A stretch of DNA of 46,690 nucleotides from a virus. Lineage: Duplodnaviria > Heunggongvirae > Uroviricota > Caudoviricetes. Every line of letters begins with the position of its first letter. Within the stretch, counting starts at the first letter, position 1. Made by a program: the position numbers. This document shows positions 39,001-45,000 of the stretch, piece after piece. Where the stretch lies: the IMG/VR virus record IMGVR_UViG_2718218402_000006; one strand, written 5' to 3'.

Positions 39001-42000
39001 TAAAAATTAGTCATATCACGCTTTGATTTGTTGAGCTTTTCACAACGCAAAAGCCCCAGCGTTTTCAGACTTGCAAATGCGCGTTTTAACGTTGACTCTG
39101 ACCAGAACGGGAACTGTTCCAGCCATTGTTCTGTTGTGTTATAAATCCAGCGAACACCATCACATTCCATGCCGGAACCGGTATCTCTCAACCAGTAATG
39201 CAGCTGCTGCAACACGATGGCTTCGTTCAGACCAATTTTCATCGCCAGCTGCGTGTTTATAACCAGCGGGCGTTCAGCAAAAAGGAGCTTCATCCCCTCC
39301 CCCAGAACACGTTATCAATGCGCCACCACGGCATTTCCCGCCGGACCACCACGATTCATCTGATTGAAACCAGCAATTACCACCGCGACAAGTTCATCAG
39401 CGTCTCTCACCAGTCGTTCATGCGTATCCACCAGTTCCCGAAAATAATCGGAACTGTGGCTGCGCATCCAGGCCACCAGCGGAGGTGGCATTGCCTTTTC
39501 GATCGCTGGTAACAAAGCCTGAATTTTTTTAACCGCATCAGGGGTGTCTTTCTCCACCCAGCGGAAAATTTTCTGAGTATTGCGAGCCAGGGCTTCCGGA
39601 TGGCTGTCGTCATACAGTTCCGGGAATGTCATACCCAGCTCAAAATAAGCCCGGGTTATTTCAGCTGCCGGAACTTTTTCACCGTCCGGACGCGCCCAGG
39701 CATTCATCGCCATGCGGATGTGTTCATGCTTGATTTTCATGAATCATTTGCCTCTTGATGCTTCGGGTATGATCGTTTTTGTCATTTGGTTGCTTCATCG
39801 ACATATTCTGCGAATAACATGACGAACGTCGTAAGTATGACCAGTCAACATCAGGACGAAGTTCTTCACACAGGACTCCACCTTTTGTTGCTCGTTCAAT
39901 CGCTGGACATCTCTCGGCAGGCAACCGACGTACACCTTTGATCCATTGATTTACGCTTGGAGGCGATACCCCTAAAAGTCTGGCCATTGCTGATTGCCCA
40001 CCAACAACAGCACAAGCTCGTTTGAATGAATAGTTCTCTTTTTTCATCGAATGAACTCCAAAAAACACACAATGATATTAGGCGACGCCTAATATCATTG
40101 TCAATAGGCTATGCCTAACAACCAAGAGGTAGGGATTGCCTAATGCAATGCACATAGGAGACTATTAAGCAATGCTTAGTGGTAAAGACTTAGGCCGAGC
40201 GATAGAGCAGGCCATTAATAAAAAAATTGCATCAGGAGCCGTCAAATCAAAGGCGGAGATCGCACGCCATTTCAAAGTCCAACCACCATCAATCCATGAC
40301 TGGATTAAGAAAGGTTCGATAAGTAAAGATAAACTTCCAGAACTATGGCGTTTCTTTTCTGATGTGGTTGGTCCAGAGCATTGGGGGCTTAACGAATACC
40401 CCATACCAACCCCTTCCTGCTCAGATTCAAAAAGAGAACTTTTAGACATAAACAGCCTTTATCAAGCCGCTTCTGATGAAAAAAGAGCAATTGTAGCCTT
40501 CCTCTTATCTGGAAATGCTGCGGAGCCTGGTTGGGTTGATTATGACGTTCGCGCCTACATTACTGCAATGGAAATGAAGGTAAGTAACTATCTGAAAAAT
40601 CAAGAATCAGAACGGAAAAGCCAGAACATCACCAAAACGGGAACTTAAACTTATATGGTCCGACGGGAAGCACCTAGATCCCGTTATTTAGCTCCCATTA
40701 CCTCTTCCACATACCATCGCCTATTAGGTTGTGCGCAAAAAGCATTAGGCATAGCCTATTGACAAGTAATTAGGCATTACCTATAGTTTTCTCATACCAA
40801 CCCACCCCGCCCCACAGAATGCAGGGCAATACTTTGAGTTACCAGGCAGTGGTCAGGGGGTAAGTAGCCAGCCCGAGGCGTAAGAACATGACGGCAGGGT
40901 TCAACTTTAATAACTATGCAGCAGGTTTTTGTTCCGCTACCCCGGCGTTAAGGGGAAATGAGGTCAACATGGATATGCTCAATCTTGGCAACAACGAATC
41001 TCTGGTATGTGGCGTGTTCCCCAACCAGGACGGCACGTTTACCGCGATGACGTATACCAGAAGCAAAACGTTTAAAACTGAAGCTGGCGCGCGTCGCTGG
41101 TTAACCAGAAACACTGACTGATGAGGTTGACGATGGAATTTAAAGATTTACCAGTACCATTCCAGGAAATGGCATCGAATGTGGTTCGCTCTCAACTGGC
41201 GACTCTTGACCTGAGTACCGTAGAAAAAGAAACCATCGATACTATATCCGGTAACGTGCGTCGTGCCTTTATAGGTCTGTATGAAGAGAAGCGCCTATTC
41301 GGCGGACAGAATTCGCCTGAAAACAAGAATCAAGCAAATGATGAGAAGCTGAAACACATTATCGCCTTACTTTTGGAAGACGCAAAACGTCTACAGCAAC
41401 TGGAACCAAATGCAGGCACAGAGGCCCGCATTTGGATTGCCATGAAATCACTCAAATGTGAAAGCAGTGATTATTTCAAAACAACAATTAAAACTACTCA
41501 ACTTTCGGGAGAGCTACTGAAGAAATTGCCATAAGAGCATGGTCTTTCTCTTGTTCTGCAAGATGAGCATTAATACCTGGTATGGTTTTTTCAAATTTAT
41601 CTATCTGTTGAATAACAACTTCGCGGTATACGTTTGTTTTTGTACCACCAAGCGCAGCCGTTAATGCAGAAAGCATATTTAGTATCATATCAGTGCGATA
41701 TGAAAGAATCCTGATAGCTTCATCTTGTTTTTCAATAATAGATTGCAGGGCCTCAATTTGCTTTTTATCCATTTCACCCTCCTGAGGGTTGGTAATTAAG
41801 GAGTTCTCCACGGGTCAGGTGGAGTGCGTGCGCCGGACACGGGTGAACATCCGGCACTGACAGTTTACTGAAAGGATATGTCCCTGAAAAGTCAGGGCAT
41901 AACGCGAAAGCGCACGGCGAAATTGGTCTCTCTATACGGTGTCGTTAAATTTAGTTCGACCGTGCGCTTCCGGTTGTGGCACTCCGCGAAATGGCGCGGC

Positions 42001-45000
42001 GGTAAGTATGGCGGGGTTATTCCTTCCCCGTTGAGGACACCGGGTTGTCAGGTTGACCATACGCTTAAGCGACAACCCCGCTGCAACGCCCTCTGTTATC
42101 AATTTTCTGGTGACGTTTGGCGGTATCAGTTTTACTCCGTGACTGCTCTGCCGCCCTTTTTAAAGTGAATTTTGTGATGCGGTGAATGCGGCTCAGCGCA
42201 CGCGGAACAGTTAAAACCAAAAACAGTGTTATGGGTGGATTCTCTGTATCCGGCGTTAATTGTTAACTGGTTAACGTCACCTGGAGGCACCAGGCACCGC
42301 ATCACAAAATTCATTGTTGAGGACGCGATAATGGAAACGTTATTACCAAACGTTAATACGTCTGAAGGTTGTTTTGAAATTGGTGTCACTATCAGTAACC
42401 CTGTATTTACTGAAGATGCCATTAACAAGAGAAAACAAGAACGGGAGCTATTAAATAAAATATGCATTGTTTCAATGCTGGCTCGTTTACGTCTGATGCC
42501 AAAAGGATGTGCACAATGAATTCAGCATTTGCTGCTTGTTCTGACAGTTTTTCTTGTTTCCGGAGAGCCAGTTGATATTGCAGTCAGTGTTCACAGGACA
42601 ATGCAGGAGTGTATGACTGCAGCAACCGAACAGAAAATTCCCGGTAACTGTTACCCGGTCGATAAAGTTATTCACCAGGATAATATCGAAATCCCGGCAG
42701 GTCTTTAAAACAGTTCCGTAATAAATATCCGGTTTCATTCTTATATGCCAGCAATGGCAGGGATTTGTTCATCCTTAAATCTGTCATGAGGTTAAAACAA
42801 ATGAGTAAAGTCTTTATTTGCGCCGCTATTCCTGACGAACTGGCAACAAGGGAAGAAGGCGCTGTGGCTGTAGCCACAGCCATTGAAGCTGGCGACGAAC
42901 GCCGTGCTCGAGCAAAATTTCACTGGCAATTCCTGGAACATTATCCGGCTGCTCAGGACTGCGCTTATAAATTTATTGTCTGCGAGGATAAACCTGGCAT
43001 ACCCCGCCCTGCCCTCGATTCATGGGATGCTGAATATATGCAGGAAAACCGCTGGGATGAGGAGTCTGCTTCTTTTGTCCCGGTTGAGACTGAATCCGAT
43101 CCGATGAACGTCACTTTTGACAAGCTGGCCCCTGAAGTACAGAACGCTGTCATGGTTAAGTTCGACACATGTGAAAACATCACCGTTGATATGGTTATTA
43201 GCGCACAGGAATTGTTGCAGGAAGACATGGCAACATTCGACGGACATATCGTTGAAGCGTTGATGAAAATGCCAGAAGTTAACGCCATGTATCCGGAGCT
43301 TAAGCTGCATGCCATCGGGTGGGTTAAGCATAAATGTAAGCCTGGTGCCAAATGGCCCGAAATTCAGGCAGAGATGCGCATCTGGAAAAAACGTCGCGAA
43401 GGTGAACGCAAGGAAACCGGAAAATACACGTCTGTTGTTGATCTCGCCCGCGCCAGAGTCAATCAACAGCACACTGAAAATTCAACAGGAAAAATCAGCC
43501 AGGTCATTGCTGCCATTCATCGCGAATACAAGCAGACATGGAAAACACTGGATGACGAACTGGCCTACGCTCTCTGGCCTGGTGATGTGGATGCCGGAAA
43601 CATTGACGGCAGCATCCATCGCTGGGCAAAAAATGAAGTTATCGACAACTACCGCGAAGACTGGAAGCGTATCTCGGCATCAATGCGCAAACAGCCTGAT
43701 GCCCTTCGCTACGACCGCCAGACTATTTTTGGCCTTGTCCGTGAACGTCCGATCGACATTCACAAAGACCCTGTGGCACTGAACAAATACATTACTGAAT
43801 ACCTGACTACAAAGGGCGTGTTTGAAGATGAAGGAACAAATCAGAGCGCAACTGATACTCTCTCGTCGCCAGTACCAGAAACTGATGCAGTGGAAACGGC
43901 AATTCCGGACAACGAAAAAACCGAATGCAAAGTGGAAGTCGAACCATCTGTAGAGCGTGAGGGGCCGTTCTACTTCCTCTTCACCGACAAGGATAGCGAA
44001 AAATACGGTCGCGCAAACAAACTTTCTGGTCTGGAAAAAGCACTAGCCCTGGGAGCTACGGAAATCACAAAAGAGGAATACTTCGCACGTAAAAACGGCA
44101 CGTACTCAGGTTCACAACAAAATACTGGTGCATCTGACACGACCGCACAACCAGAGCCGGTAAAAGTTACCGCTGACGAAGTAAACAAAATTATGCAGGC
44201 AGCCAATATCAGCCAGCCTGACGCCGATAAGTTGCTTGCTGCCTCTCGCGGAGAATTTGTTGCAGGGATTAGCGACCCGAATGATCCGAAATGGGTTAAG
44301 GGGATCCAGACCCGCGATTCTGTAAACCAGAACCAGCATGAATCGGAACGGAACTACCAAAAAGCGGAACAAAACAGCCCAAATGCGTTACAAAACGAGC
44401 CAGAAACGAAACAGCCTGAACCAGTGGCGCAACAGGAAGTGGAAAAAGTCTGCACCGCCTGCGGTCAGACCGGCGGCGGCAACTGCCCTGATTGTGGCGC
44501 GGTGATGGGCGACGCAACATACCAGGAAACATTCGATGAAGAGTATCAGGTTGAAGTTCAGGAAGATGATCCGGAGAAAATGGAAGGCGCTGAACATCCA
44601 CACAAGGAGAACACTGGCGGCAATCAGCATCACAATAGCGATAATGAAACTGGCGAGACGGCAGATCACTCAATTAAGGTGAACGGTCATCAAGAAATCA
44701 CATCCACCAGCAGGACGTGTGACCATCTAATGATCGACCTTGAAACCATGGGAAAAAATCCTGATGCCCCGATCATCTCAATAGGTGCAATATTTTTCGA
44801 TCCGCAAACCGGAGATATGGGACCGGAATTTAGTAAGACTATCGATCTGGAAACTGCTGGCGGAGTCATTGATCGGGACACCATTAAATGGTGGCTTAAG
44901 CAATCACGCGAAGCGCAATCTGCCATTATGACCGATGAAATCCAGTTAGATGATGCACTGTTACAATTGCGGGAATTTATCGACGAAAACTCCGGTGAAT

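What the first reader, a model, noticed from the sequence alone, without database searches (positions are those of the whole stretch)
41812..42708. dicF sRNA and dicB division-inhibition module with a ~290-nt ORF-free structured leader and a frameshifted ydfD-like gene
The segment 42104-42161 matches the recalled DicF small RNA, which represses ftsZ, and is followed by dicB (62 aa). Immediately downstream, an ATG overlapping the dicB stop opens a frame that stops after 19 codons while the +1 frame encodes 58 more codons with a hydrophobic N-terminus, consistent with a ydfD-like lysis gene inactivated by a single-base insertion near 42531-42536. Upstream (41812-42103) there is no convincing ORF but several hairpins, likely the processed dicF precursor.
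Basis: partly seen in the sequence, partly recalled or inferred. Interest (0 to 1): 0.6.

Follow-up and report, generated by a model that had tools for sequence, protein, structure and literature searches.

The report
dicF–dicB prophage module, broken ydfD
This is an ordinary copy of the well-studied E. coli prophage operon that makes the cell-division inhibitors DicF (a small RNA) and DicB; its neighbouring lysis gene ydfD is broken by a one-base insertion seen in no other genome searched, and the spacer between dicF and dicB proved to be an unannotated relative of the phage small RNA STnc100.

Summary

- **DicF:** 42105-42156 matches Rfam DicF at 76.7 bits (threshold 48) and is identical to K-12.
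- **dicB:** 42331-42519 encodes a 62-aa DicB (Pfam 137 bits), 61/62 identical to K-12.
- **ydfD:** the ATG at 42516 overlaps the dicB stop. The frame ends after 19 codons, and the rest of YdfD (DUF1482) continues in the +1 frame to 42708. The cause is one extra base at 42532/42533.
- **How rare the insertion is:** none of 3,475 complete E. coli records has this allele. It is also absent from the species-representative genome set and from IMG/VR. It is the only net indel in 12.4 kb against the nearest relative.
- **Leader:** the "ORF-free leader" is the documented long untranslated region of the dicBF operon. A 22-bp hairpin (41898-41978) lies where the published 190-nt RNase III product should begin.

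One thing goes beyond the finding. The dicF-dicB spacer (42162-42317) is a four-helix RNA. It is also found upstream of kilR in Rac-type prophages and in P1-like plasmids. Reciprocal covariance-model hits and strong covariation place it with STnc100/PasD. Its closing stem coincides with the published RNase III cut that yields 72-nt DicF.

The parts
40759..40787 (+). Promoter-like site TTGACA-17-TATAGT (11 of 12 matches). It is the probable equivalent of dicBp, the PL-like early-left promoter, upstream of the ydfA-like gene.
   Evidence: Its position relative to the racR-like repressor and the DUF1391 gene follows relative L090. Function is inferred.
40969..41121 (+). ydfA-like small gene (DUF1391), the first gene of the operon.
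   Evidence: Pfam DUF1391 97 bits. phrog_751. Annotated in relative L090.
41133..41534 (+). 133-aa hypothetical phage gene (phrog_1363). It sits where K-12 has ydfB and ydfC.
41494..41772 (-). 92-aa hypothetical gene (phrog_18692) on the opposite strand, with AGGAGG 5 nt before its ATG. It is absent from K-12.
41786..42103 (+). Untranslated leader, the DicF precursor. Homology with the K-12 ydfC-dicF intergenic region starts at 41786.
   Evidence: Alignment A1. The ORF is not conserved. Literature: PMC5069750, PMC10448788.
41898..41978 (+). Long hairpin of about 22 bp with an invariant stem and a hypervariable apex of about 33 nt. It is the probable RNase III substrate that gives the 5' end of the 190-nt DicF species.
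   Evidence: Counting 190 nt back from the terminator U-tract lands at about 41968-41972, in the 3' arm. This is an inference from length alone.
42104..42161 (+). DicF sRNA (53 nt, 42104-42156) with its intrinsic terminator hairpin and U-tract.
   Evidence: Rfam 76.7 bits. Identical to K-12.
42162..42317 (+). STnc100-like four-helix RNA element. The closing stem pairs 42162-42184 with 42297-42317. The published 72-nt DicF 3' end (about 42175) falls in its 5' arm.
   Evidence: cmscan STnc100 37.4 bits, E 1.3e-6. Model R1 176 bits. Covariation. The 72-nt species is from PMC5069750 and PMC9438474.
42331..42519 (+). dicB, 62 aa, with GAGGA Shine-Dalgarno at 42319-42323.
   Evidence: Pfam DicB 137 bits. 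61/62 identical to K-12.
42516..42575 (+). 5' remnant of ydfD. The ATG overlaps the dicB stop. The 19-aa product MNSAFAACSDSFSCFRRAS shares only its first 6 residues with YdfD.
42532..42533 (+). The single inserted base (either C 42532 or T 42533, depending on the ancestral allele).
   Evidence: Found in 0 of 3,475 E. coli records. Absent from genome contigs and viral contigs. The only net indel in 12.4 kb against L090.
42529..42708 (+). Remainder of ydfD in the +1 frame, corresponding to residues 7-63 of YdfD. Read mechanically it is a 59-aa ORF starting at TTG, with no Shine-Dalgarno at a workable distance.
   Evidence: DUF1482 86 bits. phrog_1092. Sequence.
42801..45272 (+). Downstream exonuclease gene (ydfE-like, Rv2179c-like 3'-5' exoribonuclease domain). 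It is followed by xis and int.

Best explanation
The segment is the middle of the early-left (PL-like, dicBp-type) operon of an E. coli lambdoid prophage. It is organised like the dicBF operon of the K-12 Qin prophage.

Inferred mechanism, by homology with K-12:
1. Transcription starts upstream of the ydfA-like gene and runs through a long untranslated leader.
2. RNase III cuts the 41898-41978 hairpin, giving the 190-nt precursor.
3. RNase E trims this to the 53-nt DicF, which ends at its own intrinsic terminator.
4. Transcripts that read through the terminator continue into a 156-nt four-helix RNA of the STnc100 superfamily.
5. RNase III cuts that element's 20-bp closing stem. This gives the 72-nt DicF form and frees a dicB mRNA with a short leader.
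6. dicB is translated. Ribosomes couple through the ATGA overlap into ydfD.

In this genome ydfD carries a private +1 insertion after codon 6. Coupled translation therefore yields a 19-aa peptide instead of the 63-aa lysis protein. The module keeps both division inhibitors and has most probably lost the lysis function.

Shown here: the identities, the frameshift and its rarity, and the RNA structures and their conservation. Inferred from K-12 literature: the cleavage sites and the order of events.
For: - DicF covariance-model hit.
- DicB and DUF1482 Pfam hits.
- Base-level alignment with K-12 and strain 214-4 shows one inserted base.
- 0 of 3,475 E. coli records carry the allele. The exact 32-mer is absent from the genome and viral collections.
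- There is no other net indel in 12.4 kb against a 99.2%-identical relative, which argues against a generally error-prone assembly.
- Most of 83 related loci encode an intact 63-aa YdfD. Five show independent disruptions: L005, L025, L044, L026 and L034. ydfD decay is therefore recurrent.
- Gene order matches annotated relatives.
- Processing scheme from the literature: PMC10448788, PMC5069750, PMC9438474.
- The lengths 190 and 72 nt map into the two long stems predicted here.
- Spacer structure: 96% of cells paired with 14 compensatory pairs. Across 104 distinct sequences, 94% paired and 35 of 40 pairs compensatory.
- YdfD lacking even 1, 2 or 5 N-terminal residues no longer prevents colony formation (PMC8835842).
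Against: - No expression or read data exist for this genome, so the insertion could be a sequencing error.
- The RNase cleavage positions are mapped here only by published fragment lengths. The position numbering in PMC10448788 (813/814) could not be reconciled with these coordinates.
- Within the leader hairpins there are only one-sided (wobble) changes and no compensatory ones. Their structure rests on thermodynamics and conservation.
- A minus-strand gene (41494-41772) lies inside the operon. It is absent from K-12, so transcription through to dicF from the upstream promoter is assumed, not shown.
Confidence: 0.88

Rival explanations
1. The ydfD frameshift is a sequencing or assembly artefact, and the real genome has an intact 63-aa ydfD.
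For: - The allele is unique among 3,475 E. coli records and absent from two other collections.
- The window reads GCTGC where the known alleles read GCGC, GTGC or GCAC. A consensus error at a polymorphic site shared by several paralogous prophage copies could produce this; genomes carry a median of 2 and up to 10 copies.
Against: - The site is not a homopolymer.
- It is the only net indel in 12.4 kb compared with a 99.2%-identical relative, so the assembly is not indel-prone.
- Independent ydfD disruptions occur in about 6% of related loci, so a real pseudogene is unremarkable.
Confidence: 0.25
2. ydfD is not dead. Translation starts at TTG 42529 (or ribosomes shift +1) and makes a 59-aa YdfD lacking only the first four residues, with residual lysis activity.
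For: The +1 ORF opens with TTG at 42529 and keeps residues 7-63 intact, including the hydrophobic segment.
Against: - The only Shine-Dalgarno (AAGGA, 42501-42505) is 23 nt upstream of the TTG.
- Ribosomes coupled from dicB enter the ATG frame and terminate downstream of the TTG.
- No slippery motif is visible at the site.
- YdfD variants lacking 1, 2 or 5 N-terminal residues all allowed survival, and longer deletions gave more colonies (PMC8835842).
Confidence: 0.08
3. The leader is coding: the 96-aa ORF 41878-42168 is a real gene that overlaps dicF.
For: The ORF exists with an ATG start.
Against: - No Pfam hit.
- In 44 of 46 distinct homologous leaders the frame is interrupted, often at codon 12 or 61, and 1-nt and 2-nt indels occur within it.
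- It is open here only because of a T-to-C change at 42074 that removes a TGA.
Confidence: 0.02
4. The dicF-dicB spacer is only a passive RNase III stem, or a relic of recombination between phage modules. Its resemblance to STnc100 has no functional meaning.
For: - The Rfam score (37.4) is below the STnc100 gathering score of 47.
- No expression data exist for an excised fragment.
- Module boundaries in these prophages are highly mosaic.
Against: - The internal hairpins, not just the closing stem, are kept with compensatory changes across the dicB, kilR and P1-like contexts.
- A model built without any STnc100 sequence finds the window's STnc100 at 46 bits and more than 100 others.
- G·U pairs mark the + strand as the structured one.
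Confidence: 0.3

Closest known systems
dicBF operon of the Qin cryptic prophage, E. coli K-12 (ydfABC-dicF-dicB-ydfDE)
   Same: - Same order: leader, dicF, spacer, dicB, ydfD, exonuclease.
- DicF is identical and DicB is 61/62 identical.
- The leader is 96.5% identical from 41786 onward.
- Same ATGA overlap between dicB and ydfD.
   Different: - ydfD is frameshifted here.
- ydfB and ydfC are replaced by a 133-aa gene and a minus-strand 92-aa gene.
- The exonuclease, xis and int are intact here, while K-12 has IS-disrupted remnants.
- The repressor is RacR-like rather than DicA.
Rac-type prophage kilR leader
   Same: The same 156-nt structured element lies immediately upstream of the division-inhibitor gene. 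In some Rac-like prophages a DicF-family RNA precedes it (L093, 60.9 bits).
   Different: - The downstream gene is kilR, annotated and named separately from dicB.
- The L093 DicF-like RNA has a different 5' seed.
- Rac-SA53 has no DicF hit at the gathering threshold.
STnc100 (Rfam RF02076) and PasD prophage sRNAs
   Same: - Closing stem, GGUGAAU junction, hairpin P2, hairpin P4, and the hairpin CC-N-GG/AGGCA/CC-N-GG followed by CACC.
- Reciprocal covariance-model hits and covariation.
   Different: - STnc100 and PasD lie between the Q antiterminator and the esterase/lysis genes (window 29106-29278; bioRxiv 10.64898/2026.05.13.724894). This copy lies in the early-left operon.
- It scores below the Rfam threshold.
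- No evidence that it accumulates as an sRNA or binds Hfq.
Phage lambda kil, and the RNase III-processed N leader (from general knowledge, not tested here)
   Same: A host division inhibitor is encoded in the PL operon, and an RNase III-sensitive structure lies in front of an early gene.
   Different: No sequence relationship was tested or seen.

Membership tests
DicF sRNA (Rfam RF00039) | Covariance-model score at or above the gathering score (48 bits) over the full model | tested here: met
   76.7 bits, model 1-52/52, window 42105-42156
DicF sRNA (Rfam RF00039) | Single-stranded 5' seed identical to the K-12 DicF that pairs with ftsZ, followed by a terminator hairpin and U-tract | tested here: met
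   42104-42161 is identical to K-12 in A1. The hairpin is fully paired in the CM alignment.
DicF sRNA (Rfam RF00039) | Embedded in a polycistronic early prophage operon upstream of dicB | tested here: met
   Gene order in the window and in annotated relatives
DicF sRNA (Rfam RF00039) | [quoted passage not shown] | not testable with these tools
   Known for K-12 only (PMC10448788, PMC5069750)
DicB (Pfam PF05358) | Full-length profile match above the cut-off, protein of about 62 aa | tested here: met
   137.3 bits against 27, residues 1-62 of 62
DicB (Pfam PF05358) | MinC-dependent inhibition of FtsZ ring formation | not testable with these tools
   Inferred from 61/62 identity to K-12 DicB
YdfD lysis protein (DUF1482, PF07358) | Profile match above the cut-off | tested here: met
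   86.3 bits against 25 for the +1-frame ORF 42529-42705
YdfD lysis protein (DUF1482, PF07358) | Uninterrupted 63-aa reading frame starting at the ATG that overlaps the dicB stop | tested here: not met
   The frame from 42516 stops after 19 codons because of a one-base insertion at 42532/42533
YdfD lysis protein (DUF1482, PF07358) | Causes lysis when expressed; binds IspG | not testable with these tools
   Published N-terminal deletions lose killing (PMC8835842), so loss of function here is likely
STnc100 (Rfam RF02076), for the dicF-dicB spacer | Covariance-model score at or above the gathering score (47 bits) | tested here: not met
   37.4 bits, E 1.3e-6, model 21-154/206
STnc100 (Rfam RF02076), for the dicF-dicB spacer | Shared secondary structure supported by compensatory changes, and reciprocal detection | tested here: met
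   R1, built without any STnc100 sequence, finds the window's STnc100 at 46 bits and more than 100 others. 35 of 40 pairs are compensatory, 94.2% paired against 74.5% in shuffles. Caveat: that alignment is fitted to the model.
STnc100 (Rfam RF02076), for the dicF-dicB spacer | Location between the Q antiterminator and the esterase/lysis genes | tested here: not met
   The spacer lies in the early-left operon. The window's true STnc100 at 29106-29278 has the canonical location.
STnc100 (Rfam RF02076), for the dicF-dicB spacer | Accumulates as an Hfq-associated sRNA | not testable with these tools
   No expression data are available

The most novel reading that the evidence does not exclude
The 156-nt spacer between dicF and dicB is a functional member of a large phage RNA superfamily (STnc100/PasD), not mere linker. 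The same spacer lies between a DicF-like RNA and kilR in Rac-type prophages. RNase III cuts both arms of its closing stem and could release a third product of the 'dicBF' operon. That product would be a structured RNA of about 125 nt, alongside 72-nt DicF and a short-leadered dicB mRNA. The same module recurs upstream of other phage genes and in tandem arrays. It would then be a portable processing cassette, sRNA cassette, or both.
Probability: 0.3. Interest if true: 0.5.

Novelty: already known. Interest (0 to 1): 0.22.

Why it matters
As submitted, the finding re-identifies a textbook prophage module, so it matters little beyond correct annotation: dicF and the ydfD pseudogene should both be annotated.

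The private ydfD frameshift is a small example of a recurrent pattern. Five of 83 related loci are disrupted independently. The lysis gene decays while the two division inhibitors are kept.

The link between the dicF-dicB and dicF-kilR spacer and the STnc100/PasD superfamily is the only part that might interest specialists:
- It gives a structural identity to the documented RNase III site at the 3' end of 72-nt DicF.
- It suggests a testable third RNA product in an operon studied since the 1980s.
- It extends the STnc100/PasD family from the late (Q) region to the early-left operon and to P1-like plasmids.

Tried and rejected
- **Exact-allele searches:** the frameshift 32-mer was searched in genome contigs and viral contigs and found nowhere. 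The source genome could therefore not be identified.
- **Covariation in the upstream leader:** 46 distinct sequences gave only one-sided changes and no compensatory pairs. They are too similar for a test.
- **Leader minus strand:** it folds with a better z-score (-4.33) than the plus strand (-2.05). I considered an antisense RNA and rejected it as unsupported. The absolute energies are equal, the difference comes from the shuffled background, G·U pairs favour the plus strand, and no promoter-like site was found.
- **Long-range anti-SD pairing:** 42087-42093 pairing with the dicB Shine-Dalgarno at 42319-42327 appears in both the single-sequence and the consensus folds. All columns are invariant, and the kilR-type locus L093 offers no clear equivalent. 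It remains a prediction only.
- **nut/boxB-like site:** considered for the hairpin at 41882-41897 and rejected. It has a 6-bp stem with an AAAG loop and is absent from many relatives.
- **Papers not held:** Masuda 2016 (PMC5975272) and Faubladier & Bouché 1994 (PMC205167) were not available. I cannot rule out that the 1994 paper already noted the shared sequence upstream of kil and dicB.

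
Full report
**What is at the coordinates**

The Rfam scan of the whole window gives a full-length DicF match at 42105-42156 on the + strand. It scores 76.7 bits against a gathering score of 48, E 2.6e-15. The ORF 42331-42519 encodes a 62-aa protein that matches Pfam DicB end to end at 137 bits.

An ATG at 42516 overlaps the dicB TGA (ATGA). That frame stops after 19 codons. The +1 frame 42529-42708 matches DUF1482, the YdfD family, at 86 bits.

Aligning 41750-42760 with E. 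coli K-12 and with the best-matching strain 214-4 shows one extra base in the window. It reads TTTGCTGCTTG where K-12 has TTTGTGCTTG and 214-4 has TTTGCGCTTG. DicF is identical to K-12. DicB differs by K2E.

**Is the frameshift real, and how common is it?**

- A 71-nt query centred on the indel matched 3,475 complete E. coli records. None reached 99% identity, so none carries the allele.
- The exact 32-mer is absent from the species-representative genome collection and from IMG/VR.
- The nearest relative over the right-hand 12.4 kb of the window is E. coli Z1323HEC0010, at 99.2% identity. This insertion is the only net indel against it. The other gaps are compensating pairs inside variable patches. 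The assembly is therefore not generally indel-prone, and the site is not a homopolymer. I put a real mutation at about 0.75 and an artefact at about 0.25. Only reads can decide.
- Among 83 related loci, almost all encode an intact 63-aa YdfD. Five have independent lesions:
  - a different frameshift in Shigella flexneri (L005);
  - a stop at codon 31 (L025, L044);
  - a truncation at 53 aa (L026);
  - an insertion (L034).

  Loss of ydfD is thus recurrent and unremarkable.
- A TTG at 42529 would give a 59-aa product equal to residues 7-63 plus two new residues. The Shine-Dalgarno sequence is 23 nt away from it. Published YdfD variants lacking 1, 2 or 5 N-terminal residues all lose the ability to prevent colony formation (PMC8835842). 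Loss of function is therefore likely.

**The leader**

From 41786 onward the window is homologous to the K-12 ydfC-dicF intergenic region.

A 96-aa ORF (41878-42168) exists mechanically. It has no family match and is open in only 2 of 46 distinct homologous leaders. The region is non-coding.

The literature already describes it:
- RNase III creates the 5' end of a 190-nt species.
- RNase E creates the 53-nt DicF.
- The 3' end is either the intrinsic terminator or an RNase III cut giving a 72-nt form (PMC10448788; PMC9438474).

In the window, the 550 nt from 41786 to 42335 fold with z = -4.15. The dominant leader structure is a hairpin at 41898-41978. Its stem of about 22 bp is invariant in 46 variants or varies only through wobble changes. 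Its apex of about 33 nt occurs in at least three unrelated versions. Counting 190 nt back from the terminator U-tract lands at about 41968-41972, in the 3' arm of this hairpin. It is therefore the probable RNase III substrate. This rests on length only.

**The spacer between dicF and dicB**

The 174 nt between the DicF terminator and the dicB start contain a 20-bp long-range stem, 42162-42184 pairing with 42297-42317. The stem encloses three hairpins. The 72-nt DicF 3' end (about 42175) falls in its 5' arm, so this stem is the documented downstream RNase III site.

The same element occurs in several other places:
- immediately upstream of kilR in Rac-type prophages (L091, L093, L097, L098);
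- upstream of an isrK/C4 module in L076;
- in P1-like plasmids, where only its core is present (L099, L100).

Evidence that it belongs with STnc100:
- A permissive Rfam scan matches it to STnc100 at 37.4 bits, E 1.3e-6. This is below the curated 47 bits.
- On 13 spacer-type sequences plus the window's genuine STnc100 (29106-29278, minus strand), 96.2% of cells pair. Fourteen of 38 pairs show changes on both sides, against 3.4 ± 1.4 in shuffles and at most 5 when partners are slid.
- A covariance model built from the 13 spacer-type sequences alone finds the window's STnc100 at 46 bits.
- The same model finds more than 100 STnc100-type elements in 80 IMG/VR loci, many in tandem arrays.
- On that 104-sequence alignment, 94.2% of cells pair against 74.5% in shuffles. 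Thirty-five of 40 pairs show compensatory change. The covariation score is 0.342 against 0.110 in shuffles and at most 0.061 when slid. The caveat is that this alignment is fitted to the model.

The spacer is therefore a diverged member of the STnc100/PasD superfamily of prophage RNAs. The papers held on STnc100 and PasD do not mention dicF, dicB or kilR. I could not read the 1990s Bouché papers, which may have noted the shared sequence.

**Context**

The window is a near-complete lambdoid prophage. Its features, in coordinate order:
- late genes on the minus strand;
- a sialate-esterase-like gene at 27118-28968;
- STnc100 between that gene and Q;
- the Q antiterminator at 30047-30868;
- an IS66-family insertion at 32371-34304;
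- hok/sok;
- a paa-like gene;
- replication genes;
- a RacR-like repressor;
- a strong promoter-like site at 40759-40787;
- the operon discussed here, followed by exonuclease, xis and int.

**Verdict**

The system is already known. The frameshift is a private allele whose reality is still unverified. The only new element is the identification of the dicF-dicB spacer as an STnc100-superfamily RNA, whose function remains to be tested.

Noticed in passing
window 29106-29278 (-): A genuine STnc100 RNA (Rfam 100.8 bits) lies between the Q antiterminator (30047-30868) and a DUF1737/SASA esterase-like gene (27118-28968). The window therefore holds two members of the same RNA superfamily, one in the late operon and one in the early-left operon.
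   Followed up: partly
window 34847-34996 (-): sok antitoxin RNA (Rfam 103.9 bits) with a hokD-type toxin gene next to it, inside the prophage.
   Followed up: no
window 32371-34304: An IS66-family element (HTH_Tnp_1 ORF and DDE_Tnp_IS66 ORF) is inserted relative to the nearest relative L090. The adjacent DUF968 gene (about 31246-32370) is 100% identical to a copy annotated as frameshifted in L090, so it is probably a pseudogene here too.
   Followed up: partly
window 41494-41772 (-): A 92-aa gene of unknown function (phrog_18692) with a strong AGGAGG Shine-Dalgarno lies antisense inside the early-left operon and overlaps the 3' end of the 133-aa + strand gene. Its start abuts the point (41786) where homology with the K-12 leader begins. 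How it is transcribed against the operon is unclear.
   Followed up: partly
window 41921-41955 (apex of the 41898-41978 hairpin): The apex of the probable RNase III hairpin exists in at least three unrelated sequence versions among 46 relatives, while the flanking stem is invariant. This looks like a replaceable cassette or a recombination hotspot.
   Followed up: partly
L093 2490-2541: A Rac-like prophage has a DicF-family RNA (60.9 bits) upstream of the shared spacer and kilR. Its 5' seed (UAUGUGUAGUCUUUGGCGG) differs from DicF, which suggests a paralogue with other targets.
   Followed up: partly
L026 1687-1875 and L076 1693-1878: In some prophages an isrK + C4 antisense RNA module (P1 immI-like, with a Rha/ant-type gene) is inserted between the dicF/spacer unit and dicB.
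   Followed up: no
L092 2507-2740 (Aeromonas phage AP1, MT713136.1 about 249906-250152): A 254-kb T4-like Aeromonas phage record carries a stretch 98.7% identical to E. coli dicF plus the spacer (DicF 72.5 bits) in an unannotated gap. This is either recent transfer or a chimeric or contaminated assembly.
   Followed up: no
L006 (JAGZPX010000007.1, labelled Veillonella parvula MAG): A 22.9-kb contig binned as Veillonella carries an E. coli-type dicF-dicB region at 94% identity. It is probably mis-binned.
   Followed up: no
L105 2312-3363; L151 4382-5471; L121 1717-2340: STnc100-type elements occur as tandem arrays of three to five copies in IMG/VR phage contigs.
   Followed up: partly
L099 756-922 and 1485-1636; L100 795-961 and 1485-1630: P1-like plasmids carry two copies of the element among their tRNA genes, one directly upstream of an SPFH-domain or TerB-family gene.
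   Followed up: no
L014, L017, L023, L024, L036 and others (homology starts at window about 42245); E. coli 042 (H34): A class of dicB-ydfD loci shares only the 3' half of the spacer with the window, and the shared sequence does not include dicF.
   Followed up: no
L007 about 2272-2330 and L009 (Escherichia albertii): The E. albertii copies keep the DicF 5' seed but have a rewritten terminator hairpin. They fall below the Rfam DicF gathering score.
   Followed up: no
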